A DNA stretch of 13,484 nt from Azolla caroliniana (Eukaryota > Plantae > Polypodiophyta). Made by a program: the position numbers and the translations under genes. Under the pieces are notes generated by a model, which saw only the letters and a program-made list of their open reading frames with translations, had not been told where the DNA came from and made no database searches. The stretch covers positions 1 through 13,484 of the forward strand of contig JBHGNT010000949.1 of NCBI GenBank assembly GCA_043228905.1, in the 5' to 3' direction. Every line of letters starts with the position of its first letter. Position 1 is the stretch's first letter. Positions 3,497 through 12,238 of the stretch are shown here, piece by piece.

Positions 3497-4241
3497 TAAA
3501 TGAAGGATCCATGGCTAGTAGTAGCCATTGTCTTACACAAGACAGGCTTGGGAAGGATAGTCACTTCCTTTCCATCTATTTTGTAGGTTGTAGCTTTTAT
3601 GCCTTTTTTAAAACTAATGGAAGGATATTTTGTTTTGAAAAAACATAGATCTAAAGGGAGATAAAGTTCAAGGAGAACTAAAAGGTTATGAAGTGACCTT
3701 TATAATCCTTTACAAAAGTATGGGCCCCTTTCACATGGTTATTTAGTTTATACAAACGTTGCTCACATTAGTAAAAGGAGGACACACCCTCCAATACTAA
3801 TTTAAATGACAGTAGCAACTATATAAGCAAGTTCATACCCTATATTTACGAGGTTGGTTGATGCTTGCAACCGCATTGAAAGGTTCAAAGTTCAAACATA
3901 GCGCACGCGTCTATGAGCCAAATTGGTATTTTGGTCTCACATCAAAAGACAATGTTGGACCCTAATTTTGTACACTTTTGGATGAAGTTTACTAGCTTCA
4001 CAAAATGAGGAGCGAGGTGTAATTGAATAACCCAACTATTCTCTCCAAAACAATATGCAAAAGCCACGATTCAAGATTGCATACATTGAACAAATGGCCT
4101 CTATAATAGGTGCGACGAAGGTGATACAATGACATATGAAAATTTAAATAATGAATCGTTCCATTCAAAATTGCATAACCCCACCCAACAAAACTTCCTA
4201 ATCCCTAGTTAATGTCAAACCTTCAAGTATGAATGTATGAT

Positions 4242-5485: not shown

Positions 5486-6122
5486 ACCAAATTTGGTCCT
5501 TTACTTTGAATCCATCAAGCACATGGTCTATAATTCTTCCTGAAACAAGTAATTTCAAGTTGGGAGGTCGATTATAATTGAATCTCTATGATGGTCATAG
5601 ATCTCGTAATTATAATAAGTTTCAATGAAAATAAATCCAAATCTATGCTAATTTTACTATATTTGAACTTTTGATATTTTACAATATAATAACTCTTACC
5701 ATGAGAACTCGGTTCAGAATATATATTTGAACCCATTTATATTGTAATGTGCAAGATTGAAGTGAGGAAATATTAGCATTAGACGAAATTTGGGGGGGTA
5801 TCGTTGAGTTTCAACATGGCTAGCCAATGATCGACAACAAAATTGTCTTCGTTATCATAAGCCTCCCACGCACCTTCGTGATCCCATTTGTTGCAAAGTA
5901 GGGCTTGATTCCCAAAACTTGAGAACTTGACTATGAGCTCTATTACCTATCATTTGGGAGATCTCTTGTTATATAAAAATAGTAATATCACCTTTCACCC
6001 ATTCACTGCATGCTCTTCCCTTTTGAACATGCACTTGTTCTTATCCTTGTATTGGTGCTTGGTTTCAATAAAAAGCATGTGAACATATTCACGTTTAATG
6101 TTGCATATTTTTTTATCATCAT

Positions 6123-9100
6123 TGGTACACATGGTGGGCTCCTGCTCACGACGTGTTAGAAAGGAGAGGTGGAGTGTGTATTTCGGTGAGGAAATCAGCG
6201 GATATCATCATCTTGGATCATGGCATATTGATCGAAGGTAGGGCTATGTTTTGCTACTTGGAATGGAGGAATGTAAAATTTGGGGTGCTGAATGTCTACG
6301 CACCTAACATTAGCAATGAGAGGACCTCATTTTGGAGACTGTTGGCAAACAAAATTCCCTCCGTCGACAATTGGATAGTGGCAGGGGATTTTAACATGAC
6401 AGAGAGAGTGGAAGATTGTCTTGGGGCTCATTCGAACTTGCTACATGGGGAGGAGTTTAGAGCGTGGGGTTTCTTAACTTCTATGTTGGGAATCCGAGAC
6501 TCGTGGTATTCTACTATGGCAGTTGAGGTGAATTCCTTAAGGTTCTCACGATTTGGCTAGAAGGAGAGTGAAGGATGTCACTCTAGATTGGACCGCATCT
6601 ATGTGAGCCCCGGGATAGAGGAATGGAGTGGCTTCTCATCCATTCTTGCTGGTTTTACTTATTCGGATCACCTTCCAGTATCCTTGACTCTTGAACCTAT
6701 TTATAAGAAGAAGAGTGAGAGCAATGTGAGGATTCCTCCGAAGATTTTCGGTATCCAAAAGGTTAAGGATGCAATGAATACCATTTGGACGGCATCCCCA
6801 TCAGCCCACGACCCGATACAGGTACTAGAGGAAAATATTATTAATTCTTCTTTGTTTCTTCAGAAAGTGGCTAGGGAGGAGTTGTTAAGGTGTCAATACC
6901 GTCTGCAATGCCTAAGGAAGGCAGTCATCTCAGCTCAAAAGCTCACGCAAGTGGACCCATGTTGTGCTTGGGCGAAAGACAGGCTGCAGGAGGCCACTAG
7001 GTTGCTGCAGGAGGTTAGACAGCAACGTGAGCAATTCCTCTTCAGAAAGTCAGCAGAATGGTGGGCTGTCAAGGGAGATAAAGTTAACAGGGAATTTTTT
7101 CTTGCCAAGACTCTGAAACAGAGAGGAACACATATTCATAGTCTCAAACGGGAGGATGATTCAATGACATTTGATCAAGAGGAAATCTTGCAAATGGCGA
7201 CTAATTACTACAGAGACCTTTTAGCTCCTACGTTGACAAACGACCCTCCGAGTAACCTGATGCATGGTGTAATTACATGCTTGAAAACCAGGATTGGAGA
7301 AGCAGCTAAAGCGCAGTTGTCAAAAGCCATAGAGGAGGAAGAGATTGTAGCGGGGCTAGATAAGATACAGAGTATGGCTTGTCCTGGTGCTGACAGTCTT
7401 CCCAAAGCCTTCTTCAAGGAGTTTTGGGAGCAAATTTTTCCAAGCTTGAAAGCTGGACTGCAAGAGATGTGGAGAACGGGACGGATGCCGAGTAGCTTCA
7501 ATGAAGGCTTGATCTACTTGATTCCGAAATCGGAGACTACGCTGCACGAGATTAAGCAATGGAGGCCCATTACAATTTTAAACCTAATTTATAAAAATTT
7601 TGCTAACATATTAGTGCAGAGAATCAAGCCCTTCCTAGGTGATATCATCCAATCCAATCAAACTGGTTTCATGGAGCATCGTTCTATTATGGACAACGTG
7701 ATTTTGTTTTGGGAGGCTGTTGCAACGGCGAAGGTGACCAATCAAAACTTAGCCTGTCTGATGCTCGACTTCGAGAAAGCCTATGATCGAGTGCAATGGT
7801 CTTTCTTGGAAGAAGTGATGAAGGTCATTGAGCTACCATTGGAATGGAGGTGTGCTGCCCAAGCCTTATATAGGAATGGCTCGAGTAAGGTGCTGATTGC
7901 AGGGAGGAAAGGAGCTCAAATCATTCTTACTCGATCCATCAGGCAGGGTTGTCCTCTTGCCCCCTTTCTTTTCCTTTTTATTACTGAAGCAATGTCTGCC
8001 CTTTTTAATAGCCAAGGGGCAAATCTTCATGGTCTTTCGATCCCTAATGCAAGGAAGTCCCTGTTGGATTCGGAGTTCGCGGACGATACGATGTTATACC
8101 TCCAAGGAAATGAAGCGAATCTTGAGAGGGCACAGAGTGCTATTGAGCTCTTTTGCAAGGCATCGGGAGCGTCCATTAATTGGAAGAAGTCCAAGGGTTT
8201 TTGGATCAGCTTGGAGCCCGAGCCTGTTTGGAATCCAAATGCTGAATTCAAATGGATTGCAAATGGGGAAGCCACTAGGTATCTGGGAACGTGGATTGGG
8301 GTAGATATCGACAAGGGAATTCAACTGCAACATATTCAAAGCAAAATCTGTGACAAAATTCGCAACTGGTCAGGGATGAACTTATCATTGGCTGGCAGGA
8401 TCATAGTAGCTAACCATGTGCTTTTGTCTACATTATGGCATGCAGTTTCAGTGTGGATGTTTTACAAGCAAGCTATTCGTACTGTTAAAGCGTGTATTAG
8501 GGGATTTCTTTGGGCGGGGATGAGGAAAGACAATGCGGCAGCCAAAGTATCATGGTCTACATTGATTCTTCCCAAGAGTAAGGGGGGTTTAGGATTGGTT
8601 GACCCTGGATTGCAGAGTCAGGCATTGTTATGTAATATATTGGTAAGAAGCTTGCTACCCGGTGATGAGTTATGGAAAACATTGATACATAATAGGAGCA
8701 TTCTATGGAGTCCAAGACTGGGTGGGCAATGGAAGTCACACAAAGCGTGGCCTTTTTGCATGGACTTAAAATTGAGGAAATCTAACCGATTGGCTGATCA
8801 TACTTGTATGTCAGTGATGCAGGCGTGGAGTATGCTTCGTGGGCATCTAAGTCGGAATCGTCCAAGTACTAGTGCTGAATGGATGTGCCAACCCCTATCG
8901 TGGAACGAGACCGTGCAATCGCCAAAAGGAATGATGCTTGGACAAAGCAAGCGCATGTCGTGGGCTATATTGCATTGTCTAGGGATACACTCGGTGGCTG
9001 ATTGGCTGCGGTTGTCCGGCAATAATCGTGATCAATTATATGAAGACATGGGAAAGGTCAGAAATGGCAGAAAGATGCTTGACGTAGTCAATACAGCTGT

Positions 9101-10214
9101 CTCCTCGCTTCCTATTGGTAATGAGGAAGAGGGTGAATGGTCTGGACAATGTGATGGTACCAGAAATATTATCAATGTCAGGGGTCTAGGAAAGAGTGGG
9201 AAGACCGTCCCGATGGGATTATTAGATGAAAGTGCAGGCTGGTACCCTATTAGAATTGTGGCAAGACACGGAAAGAAATGGAGGGTGAATCCACCAGTCG
9301 AAGAGGTCGAGGAGGATTGGATCTTGTACGTGGTTGAAGGCAAGCCTCTCGAGCGCGTAGAATGGGATCTCGCTGAATATAGGTGGAAGGGAGAACAAGC
9401 TAAATCACTAGGTTTCTTCAAATACTCGACGCGCTTGGGGAGAAAGTTAGGTTCGTATCGTGAGAAATGTGCCAACAAGTGGACCCATGCAGCTATTGAT
9501 TCAGTCTTCGTGGATAGAACCAGGAGCAGGATATGGAACTCATCCCTTCCCGAGCGGATCAAAGTGTTTTTCTGGTTAATCACCCATCGGGTTGTTCCAA
9601 CAGGAGAGTGGCTTGGGAATAGAGGCGGCATGAGTGGTTGCAAGGCGTGTAGTGCGAGCTTGGAGGACATCGCTCATTGTTTGTGGTGTTGCCCACGAGC
9701 GCAAGAAATCTGGCTGAGGAGCTTAAGAATCTTGGCTCGTTTTGGGGTTGAGGTTCATGTATCGAGCGCAGCAATCACTTGGCTGGCCACTGAATCGGCC
9801 TCGTGGTTTCAAGGGTGGGATGGAAACAGTCCTTCTTTAATGGTAAAGCAAGGATCTGTGCAACCAGCAATGCAAGGAGGTTTATTCTTCTTACAGGAAC
9901 GCTACGTGGACATATGGGTATTAGTGGTCGGCCTTACGGTCTGGCAAGTGTGGGTATCTCGGTGCAAGGAGACCCTCGCAGGTAAACGAACCCCACTGGT
10001 TGAGAATTTAATGATGATCTGGTTTAATCTTATTTCTACGTTGCGAGGTGAGTTTGAAAGTCTTCAAGGGCCATCTGATGCAAGTGAAGAAGCTAGAGCT
10101 CGATTCCTTCGGAAATGGAGCGGTTCGTCGATGCTACAGATAATGGATGGTAAAGTGAAGTGGAATTATCAACCACCGCGGTGGCTGTTCCCTCCAAGTG
10201 TTCCTAACATCTAG
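6123..10214 (+). pseudogene. L1 ORF2p: AP endonuclease + reverse transcriptase + C-terminal zinc finger (zf-RVT), interrupted by one TAG
   Basis: ORFs 6153..6560 and 6588..10214 are in the same frame, separated by TAG at 6558-6560. APE motifs: NVYAPN, AGDFN, SRLDRIYVS, SDHLPV. RT motifs: WRPITILN, QTGF, LDFEKAYDRV, IRQGCPLAPFLF, FADD (8076-8087), RYLG. Zinc finger CKAC-x8-H-x4-C at 9639-9692. Confidence 0.95.
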
Positions 10215-10468
10215 ATGGGTGCTGCCATGAGGAGCGAATGGAGGACATCTATGCTGAATTCTGTTTTGTATGAGGCTCACGTGGAGAATAGGTGTTCGAG
10301 TAATGCTATACACATAGAATGATGTGGTGTTTTGGAGTTGTTTTTTTATGTTGTTTCATCTACACATTGTTTTCCTTTGACATGCAAGATGTCTTGTAAG
10401 ATATGAGTTGTAAATGATTCCTTTGTACATTCTTAACTAATGGAAGTAGATGTTTTTGGAAAAAAAAA
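6123..10468 (+). mobile_element. L1-clade LINE (non-LTR retrotransposon), 5'-truncated within the endonuclease domain, no ORF1
   Basis: Composition shifts to higher GC at ~6123. ORF2 has APE, RT and CCHC domains, followed by a ~245 bp T-rich 3' UTR (10215-10459) and an A9 tail at 10460-10468. No TSD identified, so the 5' boundary is approximate. Confidence 0.93.
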
Positions 10469-10662
10469 TATAGATCACCTCTTTTACCATCAATTGCCTT
10501 TAGCAAGTATTGAACACTTCACCCTTTTGTTCTAAAATTAGCTCTTACCATTGTTGTTGACTTCTTCTTTTTTACATTTCCTTTTGATAATGACCAAAAT
10601 CCCAACCTATTATAAAACTTGACTTTGTTGGCTCTTTTCTGCTGTCACATGTACCATATCAT

Positions 10663-10810
10663 GAGGTCAAAAACCATAATGACTAAATGCATGGACTACT
10701 CACCTTTTGATGCCAATGATGTTAGTTTCACATTCCTTGTAAAGGTAAACATTGTCAACACTCTAACAATATTTGATACATGAGTGGGACTATTATCAAA
10801 TACACCACTT
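10663..10810 (+). repeat. Direct repeat copy 1 (~150 bp) on the left flank of the Penelope-like insertion
   Basis: GAGGTCAAAAACCATAATGAC...TCAAATACACC-ACTT aligns by eye to 12089-12238 with 3 substitutions and 2 single-base indels. Confidence 0.97.
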
Positions 10811-11293
10811 ACTCCCGTCTTAAAAAGCAAAATTCATAATCTTTCAAATTACGCCCTTAGTAAATTAGAAATCAAACTTTTAAACCTAGGACTTTTGTTT
10901 ATACCCCCCTGCCCCCCACCTACTAACCAATCCATTCTTCAAGAATACCAAAACCTCAGTAGATCCTTGAGACTTAAACATTTCTTTAAAGACTTAAACT
11001 CTCCCCCCTCTAATCCCTTCAAACTACCCAACCCGAATTGGAACCCTCCTACTAAGTATCCACCGTTAGAGTCTATACTCCATAAACACAATATCTCTCT
11101 CTCCACAAACCTCCATAATAATATACTGCCTAATACCAAAATACCACTACACCTCCAAATAGCACTAACCAGCCGTAGAAAAAACAAACAAATAATCATC
11201 CTACTAGCGGACAAAAACATCGGAGTTTGTGTCCTCGATAAAAAAACATACCTAGATGAAGCCCTAGAACATTTTTCCGACATCACTACATAT
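10811..11293 (+). pseudogene. N-terminal part of a PLE reverse transcriptase (through the DKG-type motif); RT core and GIY-YIG endonuclease absent
   Basis: Within ORF 10784..11407: IHNLSNYALSKLEIKLLNLGLLFIP, LSRSLRLKHFF, PFKLPNPNWNPP, ALTSRRKNKQIIILLADKNIGVCVLDKKTYLDEALEHFSDITTY. Matches the PLE pattern NLS..LS..E..LL..GL.F.P / R.LRLK.FF / AL..L....IVIKPADKG..VV.D...Y......LSD...Y. Homology ends at 11293; the rest of the ORF translates microsatellite. Confidence 0.85.
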
Positions 11294-11415
11294 GTATTTT
11301 ATATCTTCACTCATTTCTTTTCTCTCTCTCTCTCTCTCCCTTTTTTCTCCCTTCTCCCTTCCCCCTCCCCTATACCTCTCACTACCTTTTTGTACACATT
11401 TCACTAAAATCCATA

Positions 11416-11457
<42 letters not shown>

Positions 11458-11845
11458 CTCTTTTCCCTCAAACCTTCTCCCCACCACTCTTACTAACTTC
11501 CTTTTTCTTTCCCTTCTTATTCCCTTCCTTTATTTTCCCCTTCTCACCATCTTATGTTTACTTACTTATAATTACATACCCTATCACTCATTCATTTCCC
11601 CTTATCACCCACTCCCACTCCCACTCACTCATCTGTCTTATCACCCTATCAATCTTCCTATCACCAACTCATTTTCCCCTTTATCACCACCCCCCCTATC
11701 ATCAAGATCTTCCACCTTAAATCCTTACAGCCTTCTATCTATTTACACTCTTATTACACCCCACTCACTATGATTATACTTTCCCTCTTTCTCCTCCCTT
11801 CCCCATTCTCAACATCCTATATAAACCACCTTTTTTATTTACATG
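11294..11845 (+). repeat. Polypyrimidine / low-complexity tract including (TC)9 at 11321-11338 and (TC)18 at 11418-11453
   Basis: Read directly; the + strand has almost no G. Probably the PLE 3' UTR. Confidence 0.85.
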
Positions 11846-11898
11846 ACCTTTTGCACTGATGAGCTCTAAGCGAGCGAAACTAGTTTGTTGCATAAGGT
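11846..11898 (+). ncRNA. Minimal type I hammerhead ribozyme motif
   Basis: Core CTGATGA at 11856-11862; stem II GCTC/GAGC (11863-11866, 11872-11875) with loop TAAGC; GAAA at 11876-11879; palindromic stem III AC-TA-GT; triplet GTT at 11883-11885; outer helix ACCTTTTGCA (11846-11855) with TGCATAAGGT (11889-11898), 9/10 paired. Confidence 0.85.
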
Positions 11899-11929
11899 AT
11901 TTCCTTTCATTTTAATGAAAATTTCTTGA

Positions 11930-11932
<3 letters not shown>

Positions 11933-11990
<58 letters not shown>
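11933..11990. repeat. (TC)29 microsatellite
   Basis: Read directly from the sequence. Confidence 0.97.
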
Positions 11991-11993
<3 letters not shown>

Positions 11994-12088
11994 TTTGTGC
12001 TTAGAATCTCTTCTTTTCCTATTACATTATCTACCATATCACAAAGTCACCCGCACTCTTTGCTACAACCGAATGGTTAATAACAAAA

Positions 12089-12238
12089 GAGGTCAAAAAC
12101 CATAATGACTAAATGCATGGACTACTACACCTTTTGATGCCAATGATGTTAGTTTCACACTCCTTGTAAAGGTAAACGTTGTCAACACTCTAACAATATT
12201 TGATACATGAGTGGGACTATTATCAACTACACCTACTT
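12089..12238 (+). repeat. Direct repeat copy 2 (~150 bp) on the right flank of the Penelope-like insertion
   Basis: Aligns to 10663-10810 and runs on into the downstream retropepsin relic. Confidence 0.97.

What the first reader, a model, noticed from the sequence alone, without database searches (positions are those of the whole stretch)
10811..12088. Hammerhead-bearing, non-autonomous Penelope-like retroelement in a land-plant genome
Seen: a G-poor 1.28 kb insert with a stop-free ~160 aa PLE N-terminal RT segment that ends just after the ADK motif region, followed by ~550 bp of pyrimidine tract, a hammerhead motif and (TC)29. Known: PLEs carry minimal hammerheads in their terminal repeats and are patchily distributed in plants (conifer Dryads, Selaginella, green algae; generally not reported from angiosperms). 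Inference: this is a deletion derivative mobilised in trans by an autonomous PLE family, halfway to a retrozyme-like ribozyme RNA. In a probable fern-type genome it may be a poorly described or horizontally acquired lineage. The usual DKG motif reads DKN here, which may be diagnostic of the clade.
Basis: partly seen in the sequence, partly recalled or inferred. Interest (0 to 1): 0.85.

Follow-up and report, generated by a model that had tools for sequence, protein, structure and literature searches.

The report
Broken telomere-type retroelement outside telomeric DNA
A broken copy of a telomerase-related jumping gene whose family has no DNA-cutting enzyme sits in ordinary DNA of what is likely a land plant, between two copies of a 144-base stretch, likely because it was pasted into a staggered DNA break; it is likely a one-off dead copy rather than a new ribozyme-parasite family.

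Summary
Window 10807-12088 is a fragment of a Penelope-like element (PLE) with a type I hammerhead. Intact relatives (97.7% identical over the ORF piece) are 5.5-6.1 kb head-to-tail units: hammerhead, (TC)n, sometimes telomere-like repeats, ORF1, a likely -1 frameshift, and a telomerase-like RT with no GIY-YIG. This is the endonuclease-less, Coprina-type design. The RT nests with Selaginella, Ginkgo and Cryptomeria proteins, so horizontal transfer has no support. DKN is the known Coprina motif, not a new signature. The copy is 5'-truncated and lacks 1.45 kb including every RT catalytic motif. It carries 6 private amino-acid changes. Its deletion junction is in none of 8 family loci and no contig of 6 runs spans it, so it is likely one dead copy, not a non-autonomous or retrozyme family. 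The insert lies in non-telomeric DNA between a 144/145-bp direct repeat that is single in a diverged empty site. It ends at the same point, 17 nt before ORF1 and without telomeric repeats, as two other dispersed copies. This suggests the family primes at internal staggered breaks.

The parts
10663..10806 (.). Left copy of the 144-bp target duplication
   Evidence: 3 substitutions and 1 indel against the right copy. Single copy in a diverged empty-site contig of run X4 (record 24).
10807..10816 (+). True 5' end of element-derived DNA. It joins the target by a 3-nt ACC microhomology (10804-10806) and is followed by an 18-nt deletion between two ACTCCC repeats.
   Evidence: Direct comparison of the window with L001 1534-1570; loose ends at 10810/10811.
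10811..11293 (+). Remnant of ORF2, the N-terminal region of an endonuclease-less PLE RT (residues ~38-198), with the DKN motif at 11210-11218. Decaying, including P to L in the PADK motif.
11293..11294 (+). Junction of a ~1.45-kb internal deletion that removes all RT catalytic motifs and the thumb; imperfect ACTAC(A)TAT microhomology
   Evidence: 943 to 2402 in L003, 498 to 1951 in L004, 7548 to 9002 in L007
11294..11817 (+). Pyrimidine-rich 3' UTR of the parent family
   Evidence: A contig with 1 difference over 202 nt lies on 11629-11830 in run X3.
11818..11825 (+). TATATAAA box, 38 nt upstream of hammerhead C3; predicted promoter that would start transcription at about the 5' end of the ribozyme
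   Evidence: Offset -38 or -39 in 9 of 9 hammerhead copies from three families; function untested
11844..11899 (+). Type I hammerhead: core CUGAUGA from 11856, stem II 11863-11875, GAAA 11876-11879, palindromic helix III, predicted cleavage after U11885; predicted to act as a dimer
11933..11990 (+). (TC)29 tract; present with variable length in relatives
11991..12088 (+). 3'-terminal segment ending 17 nt before the position of the ORF1 ATG. It lacks the telomere-like repeat block of L001. Same end point as L003 and L006; inferred start site of reverse transcription.
   Evidence: The junction with the target is spanned by a 59-nt contig in run X1.
12089..12233 (.). Right copy of the target duplication (145 bp)

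Best explanation
The insert is a 5'-truncated, internally deleted copy of a two-ORF, endonuclease-less (Coprina-type) Penelope-like retroelement, likely a single dead copy, which was likely reverse-transcribed by the family's own RT into a staggered break in non-telomeric DNA, so that repair duplicated 144 bp of target. Shown: the anatomy of the parent, the absence of GIY-YIG, the deletion, the direct repeat and the shared 3' end. Inferred steps: (1) In tandem arrays the TATA box in the 3' UTR of one unit starts an RNA at the hammerhead of the next unit. (2) RT is made by a -1 frameshift from ORF1. (3) RT starts cDNA at a fixed internal site about 200 nt past the hammerhead, so this template was not cleaved at its 3' hammerhead, or was a circle or multimer. 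(4) The primer was a free 3'-OH at a break with two nicks 144 nt apart on opposite strands. (5) Template jumps or later microhomology-mediated repair removed 18 nt and 1.45 kb, and a 3-nt microhomology joined the 5' end. (6) The copy has since decayed neutrally; its only promoter points out into the flank.
For: Parent anatomy in L001, L005 and L007. ORF2 carries only RT-region families and no GIY-YIG in 7 of 7 close proteins. The confident model (pLDDT 90.7) has telomerase RTs as its top 6 fold matches. The tree places the family with Selaginella, Ginkgo and Cryptomeria. The 3' end is the same in the window, L003 and L006, each joined to unrelated DNA. Flanks hold 0-1 telomere hexamers against 10-12 in the repeat blocks of L001 and L005. 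The repeat is single in a ~10%-diverged empty contig of X4. Of 10 changed codons against L001, 6 change the amino acid (74% of random changes would), and staying stop-free has probability 0.66. The deletion junction is absent from 8 family loci and unspanned in 6 runs. PMC3846280 (passages) states that EN-deficient PLEs can prime at double-strand breaks; PMC8355091 (abstract) shows that breaks with 3' overhangs give tandem duplications.
Against: No genome is held, so copy number and chromosome position are not measured. Contigs drop rare paths: the 5' junction, which must exist where the insertion exists, was also unspanned, so a few more deleted copies cannot be excluded. L006, the only other copy with both flanks long enough to test, has no target duplication, so the 144-bp repeat is one case. 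The 'empty' contig in X3 may be an assembly collapse, because depth over the repeat there is about double. One further 3' junction (shared by L004 and L008) lies at the TC tract, not at the common end. The two repeat copies differ at 4 positions, which age or allelic exchange must explain. No named Coprina or Athena reference was in the tree. Ribozyme cleavage, promoter and frameshift are untested; the lone hammerhead's lowest-energy fold is not the active one (-14.8 against -2.9 kcal/mol).
Confidence: 0.75

Rival explanations
1. The deleted 1.28-kb form is a non-autonomous family, mobilised in trans and on its way to a retrozyme.
For: It keeps the likely cis-acting 3' end and an intact hammerhead core. 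Intact RT ORFs of the family exist to act in trans. A 2026 preprint derives animal retrozymes from PLE pLTRs (abstract only).
Against: The junction is in 0 of 8 family loci. Depth stops at 11293 in 4 of 4 runs, exactly so in X4 (252.9 expected and observed). There is one hammerhead and no upstream promoter or terminal repeat. The other dispersed copies (L002, L003, L006, L008) have different 5' ends and keep ORF2 sequence that the window lacks.
Confidence: 0.1
2. The PLE RNA was inserted by the host's L1 LINE machinery in trans, whose APE endonuclease made the nicks.
For: An L1 with a 1217-codon open RT frame ends 200 bp upstream of the left repeat, and a 94%-identical protein cluster has 27 members.
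Against: The insert has no poly(A) tail and ends at a PLE-family-specific site in 3 of 4 distinct 3' junctions. L1 duplications are usually 7-20 bp (recalled). An L1 nick could still have supplied the break.
Confidence: 0.1
3. The insert is filler DNA copied from a genomic PLE copy during break repair, with no RNA step.
For: Microhomology-bounded jumps at the 5' junction, the 18-nt deletion and the 1.45-kb deletion, and similar jumps at the 5' end of L006, fit synthesis-dependent end joining.
Against: DNA-level copying would not stop at the same 3' position in three independent loci.
Confidence: 0.07
4. The lineage was acquired horizontally.
For: PLE distribution in plants is patchy and conifer Dryads are a documented transfer (PMC9033089 passages).
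Against: The nearest named RTs are Cryptomeria 42-45%, Ginkgo 44%, Selaginella 40% and Closterium 36%, ahead of animal GIY-YIG elements at 31-34%. These form nested clades with support 1.0 and 0.975.
Confidence: 0.03

Closest known systems
Coprina-clade endonuclease-deficient PLEs (Selaginella Sm1/Sm2, conifer EN(-) PLEs, fungal Coprina-1_Alen)
   Same: Parent has two ORFs, a helical then disordered ORF1, ORF2 with DKN, RT and thumb and no GIY-YIG (compare PMC13159263 section 17), a canonical type I hammerhead as described for Selaginella (PMC4209133), head-to-tail arrays, 5' truncation and a C-rich sense strand. Two array copies have telomere-like repeats downstream of the hammerhead.
   Different: This copy and two others lack the telomeric repeats, end at a fixed non-telomeric site and are joined to ordinary DNA at the junctions seen. 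The window copy has a 144-bp target duplication. Described Coprina elements lie at chromosome ends between telomeric repeats.
Athena/Terminon elements of bdelloid rotifers
   Same: Endonuclease-less PLE RT, hammerhead near the 3' end, head-to-tail chains (PMC6431247 passages).
   Different: Unit is 5.5-6.1 kb with no accessory ORFs. Telomere-like repeats, where present, begin 130-200 nt downstream of the hammerhead rather than adjacent to it.
PLE-X of Chara and Selaginella (Chlamys clade)
   Same: No endonuclease, canonical hammerhead, insertion away from telomeres by an unknown route (PMC8557442 section 9).
   Different: PLE-X is described with a CxC motif and an N-terminal CxCX1-8C extension, inside a clade where the third residue of DK is not conserved. 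This family has a DKN-type RT behind a separate ORF1 and shows no rDNA target.
Retrozymes (plant LTR type; animal non-LTR type)
   Same: Non-coding-capable retroelement derivative carrying a hammerhead.
   Different: Plant retrozymes have two ~350-bp LTRs, each with a hammerhead (abstract); animal ones give 170-400-nt RNAs from repeats (abstract). Here there is one hammerhead, no LTR and no tandem unit.
Endonuclease-independent L1 insertions; R9 long target duplications
   Same: Retrotransposition into pre-existing breaks (PMC1920257 abstract). An exceptionally long target duplication is known for rotifer R9 (title in a reference list; 126 bp recalled).
   Different: Endonuclease-independent L1 events are tied to target deletions, and R9 uses its own endonuclease at a fixed rDNA site. 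Here an endonuclease-less PLE has a long duplication at a non-rDNA site.

Membership tests
Penelope-like elements | RT related to telomerase RT | tested here: met
   Model of parent ORF2: top 6 Foldseek matches are TERTs. Sequence relatives include GIY-YIG-bearing RTs.
Penelope-like elements | DKG/DKN motif N-terminal to the RT core | tested here: met
   LADKN in the window, PADKN in the parent; 62 of 79 relatives read DKN, 9 DKG, 2 other, 6 do not cover it.
Penelope-like elements | Hammerhead in the terminal (pLTR) region; tandem or partial-tandem arrangement | tested here: met
   Tandem units in L001 and L007; L005 begins and ends with the same 55 nt.
EN+ PLEs (Penelope/Poseidon, Dryads, Neptune, Naiad/Chlamys) | GIY-YIG endonuclease, N- or C-terminal | tested here: not met
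   No GIY-YIG in 7 of 7 close ORF2 proteins or 2 ORF1 proteins. The same scan found it in 4 more distant proteins. ORF2 ends about 80 aa after the thumb.
Coprina-type EN- PLEs | Two ORFs: coiled or disordered ORF1, and ORF2 with DKN, RT and thumb | tested here: met
   Met in the parent. The ORF1 N-domain models as all-helical but with low confidence (pLDDT 47). Only an ORF2 remnant is in the window.
Coprina-type EN- PLEs | RT groups with the Coprina clade | tested here: inconclusive
   It groups with an endonuclease-less Selaginella protein and gymnosperm proteins, but no sequence labelled Coprina, Sm1, Sm2 or Athena was available.
Coprina-type EN- PLEs | Reverse-complement telomeric repeats downstream of the hammerhead | tested here: not met
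   Absent in the window, L003, L006 and the first unit of L007; present in L001 4102-4256 and L005 5640-6110.
Coprina-type EN- PLEs | Junctions with telomeric repeats; location at chromosome ends | tested here: not met
   No telomeric hexamer in 500 bp on either side of the window insert; 0-1 in each of five other flanks. Chromosome position itself could not be tested.
Retrozymes | Two hammerheads in direct repeats (LTRs or tandem units) that release a unit-length RNA | tested here: not met
   One hammerhead core in the window. The only long direct repeat is host target DNA.
Retrozymes | Abundant linear and circular RNA | not testable with these tools
   No RNA holder listed.
Non-autonomous TE family | Several insertions sharing the same internal deletion | tested here: inconclusive
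   0 of 8 family loci and no contig in 6 runs carry the junction. This excludes an abundant family but not a few copies, because contigs drop rare paths.
Type I hammerhead ribozyme | CUGANGA, GAAA and NUH core with helices I-III | tested here: met
   Pairs listed; helix I varies among families while staying paired (read); 5 of 1000 random sequences match.
Type I hammerhead ribozyme | Self-cleavage | not testable with these tools
   Needs an in vitro assay; a cofold of two copies opens both cores around an intermolecular helix III.

The most novel reading that the evidence does not exclude
A land-plant lineage of telomerase-related, endonuclease-less PLEs has loosened its tie to telomeres. Subfamilies without the telomeric-repeat adaptor start reverse transcription at a fixed site just before ORF1 and routinely enter internal DNA at host-made staggered breaks or replication-fork ends, leaving duplications up to about one nucleosome or Okazaki-fragment length (144 bp here). 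That would give a countable footprint for how endonuclease-less PLEs spread through a genome.
Probability: 0.35. Interest if true: 0.7.

Novelty: new variant of a known kind. Interest (0 to 1): 0.45.

Why it matters
How PLEs without an endonuclease reach internal sites is stated as open (PMC8557442 section 9), and Coprina-type elements are described as largely confined to chromosome ends. This family offers a small, recent set of dispersed copies with a fixed 3' end and readable junctions, one with a 144-bp duplication. It also has intact ORFs with a candidate promoter, ribozyme and frameshift, so the question can be tested by counting junction types in one long-read genome and by an in vitro priming assay. 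The RT tree also points to an old, vertically inherited streptophyte lineage of these elements. The particular copy in the window is a dead fragment and matters mainly as that footprint.

Tried and rejected
No own genome is held, so no genome-wide junction count was possible. Pfam does not recognise the 161-aa piece; a sequence search of the PDB with P0002 found nothing; the ESM Atlas could not read P0002. No RNA holder listed. The X3 contig that joins 10662 to 12089 was first read as an empty allele, then downgraded because summed depth over the repeat is about twice the flank. A long target duplication was sought in L006 and L008 and not found; L008 has only 34 nt of right flank. L004 and L008 share a 3' tail and were counted as one junction. 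The ORF1 model was too poor (pLDDT 47) for a fold search, so a cryptic nuclease in ORF1 is not excluded by structure. Naming the host through the neighbouring L1 failed: 46 hits, none with a taxon name. The Rfam miRNA hits are a MITE hairpin and microsatellites. Earlier-findings searches returned nothing. Selection on the ORF remnant was rejected. A chimeric origin of the insert was considered because its ORF part is closest to L001 and its 3' end resembles L003 and L006. It was not adopted, because contigs nearly identical to both parts occur at equal depth in X3 (177 and 188).

Full report
1. Observation. The stretch 10807-12088 has 5.9% G against 19.9% in the window. 10811-11293 reads as 161 stop-free codons, followed by a pyrimidine tract, a hammerhead-like motif and (TC)29 at 11933-11990. 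The bare hammerhead core is expected about once per window by chance and Rfam scores it below threshold (HH9, 21.7 bits, E 0.18). The core together with stems I-III appears in only 5 of 1000 random sequences of the same dinucleotide make-up, and 8 homologous hammerheads occur in related loci.

2. The parent element. The peptide finds 7 longer proteins, six of 612-636 aa and one of 301 aa; the best is P0002 at 86%. Their precomputed domains are RT-region families with no GIY-YIG, and a fresh Pfam scan finds only RVT_1, in 5 of 7. An AlphaFold model built on 58 relatives is confident (pLDDT 90.7), and its six best fold matches are telomerase RTs. A metagenome scan gave 12 loci; 7 belong to the window's family (L001-L004, L006-L008, holding 8 ORF2 copies) and the rest to more distant families. 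L001 and L007 show head-to-tail units of about 5.5 kb, and L005 a 6.1-kb unit whose contig begins and ends with the same 55 nt. The order is hammerhead, (TC)n, in L001 and L005 a block of CCCTAAA-like repeats, ORF1 of about 815-870 aa (helical N-domain, then Asn/Pro-rich), ORF2 in the -1 frame, pyrimidine-rich 3' UTR, TATA box, next hammerhead. Five of five ORF1/ORF2 junctions seen have the heptamer A AAA AAC; a hairpin folds right behind it in the four that were folded, and its 5' arm is also present in L005. A programmed -1 frameshift is therefore likely but untested. TATATAAA lies 38-39 nt before hammerhead C3 in 9 of 9 copies, which would place the start of transcription near the ribozyme's 5' end (inference from the usual TATA-to-start distance, recalled).

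3. Family placement. Named relatives of the RT core are Cryptomeria (42-45%), Ginkgo (44%), Selaginella (40%) and Closterium (36%). I chose 79 proteins from the hits (all close hits plus a spread of distant ones) and built a FastTree on 385 columns, rooted at the midpoint. The family lies inside a clade with Selaginella, Ginkgo and Cryptomeria (local support 1.0), sister to Closterium (0.975); all 15 GIY-YIG-bearing proteins fall outside it. This fits vertical descent in streptophytes and is the basis for calling the host a land plant. No tool named the host, and the L1 search gave no taxon, so 'fern' is unconfirmed. DKN is read in 62 of the 79 rows, including 5 with GIY-YIG; DKG in 9, all with GIY-YIG. 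PMC13159263 (section 17) names DKN as the conserved motif of a two-ORF Coprina element. EN(-) PLEs are already listed for Selaginella, pine and spruce (PMC9033089 passages), and canonical type I hammerheads for Selaginella PLEs (PMC4209133, parts 1-2 of 4).

4. What happened to this copy. It starts inside ORF2, joined to the target by ACC, and an 18-nt piece between two ACTCCC repeats is missing right after the junction. A 1.45-kb deletion then runs from the codon for the invariant Y198 into the 3' UTR, removing all catalytic motifs. Against the closest intact copy (L001, 97.7%) 10 codons differ and 6 change the residue, including the conserved P of PADK. Random changes would be 74% non-synonymous and would leave the frame open with probability 0.66, so the open frame shows youth, not selection.

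5. Is the deleted form a family? The junction is in none of the 8 family copies. In runs X1, X3, X4 and X10 the summed depth of bin 11252-11322 is 672.8, 256.6, 252.9 and 22.9, against 684.6, 271.1, 252.9 and 22.8 expected if all cover stops at 11293. Loose ends at 11293 in X1, X3 and X4 continue into the intact ORF. At 97% likeness no contig of X1, X3, X6 or X7 spans the junction. The limit of this test is that the 5' junction was also unspanned although X1 holds the 3' junction, so single-copy paths into a repeat can be dropped. An abundant deleted family is excluded; a few copies are not. Depth over the ORF piece is roughly 20-30 times the flank in X1 and X3, a rough sign of a small family; the tool warns that this is no copy number. 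The insert also fails the retrozyme definition: one hammerhead, no LTRs (PMC4918200, abstract) and no short tandem unit (PMC7229834, abstract).

6. The unusual part. The window, L003 and L006 all end within about 5 nt of the same point (GGTTAATAAC), 17 nt before the ORF1 ATG, lack the telomere-like block, and continue into unrelated DNA; a fourth junction, shared by L004 and L008, lies at the TC tract. 5'-truncated ends of L002, L006 and L008 also meet ordinary DNA. The seven flanks counted hold 0-1 telomeric hexamers each, against 10 and 12 in the blocks of L001 and L005. A fixed internal start of reverse transcription is shown in vitro for an EN+ PLE (PMC11167929, part 1 of 4). For the repeat: X1 has a 59-nt contig across the 3' junction (depth 43.5, flanks 56-62). 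X4, another species label, has both a window-like haplotype and a contig about 10% diverged that runs from left flank to right flank with one copy of the repeat (record 24), which I take as the ancestral empty state. X3 has a similar joined contig that may be a collapse. L006 has no duplication but shows microhomology jumps at its 5' end, so outcomes vary, as expected for entry at breaks.

7. Mechanism. In target-primed reverse transcription a duplication arises when the two strands are cut at staggered positions leaving 3' overhangs (established knowledge, recalled). With no endonuclease in the family the break must come from the host: two nicks 144 nt apart, an L1 nick plus a second lesion, or a nascent strand end at a fork. 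EN-deficient PLEs are said to prime at deprotected telomeres or double-strand breaks (PMC3846280 passages), and 3'-overhang breaks give tandem duplications in mammalian cells (PMC8355091 abstract). I put this route at about 0.55 given the identification. That 144 bp is close to a nucleosome core length is one data point and only a lead. Because the insert runs 203 nt past the predicted cleavage site, its template was not cut there. This fits a ribozyme with a palindromic helix III that is predicted to need a second copy (cofold; dimer model in PMC4209133), or a circular or multimeric template.

8. Novelty. The kind is known: endonuclease-less PLEs with hammerheads in land plants. Searches for Penelope-like with hammerhead and plant, telomere and fern, endonuclease-deficient and Selaginella, fern genome, Coprina and gymnosperm, long target duplication and ribosomal frameshift listed no description of a plant Coprina-type family with a fixed non-telomeric 3' end, a long target duplication or this frameshift signal. 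These were search listings only; the library is partial, and three key papers were not held. Endonuclease-less PLE-X elements are already known to spread genome-wide by an unexplained route (PMC8557442 passages and section 9). Other papers seen: PMC12477314 and PMC6431247 as passages, PMC1920257 and the 2026 retrozyme preprint as abstracts.

9. Verdict. Observation confirmed; interpretation partly supported. The locus is likely a single dead copy of a new plant family of Coprina-type PLEs, not a non-autonomous or retrozyme family and not horizontally acquired. Its interest lies in the off-telomere insertion footprint. Interest 0.45; new variant of a known kind.

Noticed in passing
window ~6100-10469 (+): An L1-type LINE, apparently 5'-truncated: APE endonuclease fragment, a stop at 6558-6560, then a 1217-codon open frame with RVT_1 and zf-RVT, ending in a short poly(A) at 10460-10469. 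A 94%-identical protein cluster has 27 members. No target duplication was found.
   Followed up: partly
window 3612-3647: 78% match to the L1 3' end at 10435-10470, possibly a tiny truncated L1 remnant (D13).
   Followed up: no
window ~2311-2558: MITE-like hairpin with 30- and 39-nt inverted arms and subterminal repeats; it causes the miRNA-like Rfam hits. A Mutator-like terminus is my recollection, not tested.
   Followed up: no
L001 1332 and 6864; L003 230; L007 1906; L005 2666: Conserved A AAA AAC heptamer followed by a GC-rich hairpin at the ORF1/ORF2 overlap across three families; likely a -1 ribosomal frameshift.
   Followed up: partly
L001 5330-5570; L005 1060-1390; L007 5350-5610: ORF1 encodes (Asn-Pro)n runs from CCTAAC-type DNA repeats that resemble the C-rich telomere strand.
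   Followed up: no
L003 2911; L007 9511: Hammerhead core reads CUAACGA instead of CUGANGA in these copies, likely inactive, yet L003 is a dispersed insertion with the common 3' end.
   Followed up: no
L007 1-9654: Two different families (64% protein identity to P0002, then the window's family) are chained head to tail in one array.
   Followed up: no
L009 ~1030-1055; L010 ~1555-1580: A distant-family copy ends about 40 nt after the ORF2 stop in CCCTAACCCTAAACCCT and then joins non-telomeric DNA.
   Followed up: no
L004 2553-2616; L008 2689-2721: Two copies share a 3' tail after the TC tract that is found in no other locus, yet have different 5' ends.
   Followed up: partly
window 11848-11887 in runs X1, X3, X4, X10: Depth peaks at the hammerhead and loose ends show several diverged TATA-hammerhead variants, so the host holds more such families.
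   Followed up: no
window 12046-12062: A motif like CGCACTCCT lies about 30 nt before the common 3' end and is kept in distant families (L005, L007 first unit); candidate RT-binding signal.
   Followed up: no
protein P0004: A 301-aa relative leaves the RT sequence about 12 residues earlier than the window's peptide and runs into unrelated sequence, an independent break.
   Followed up: no
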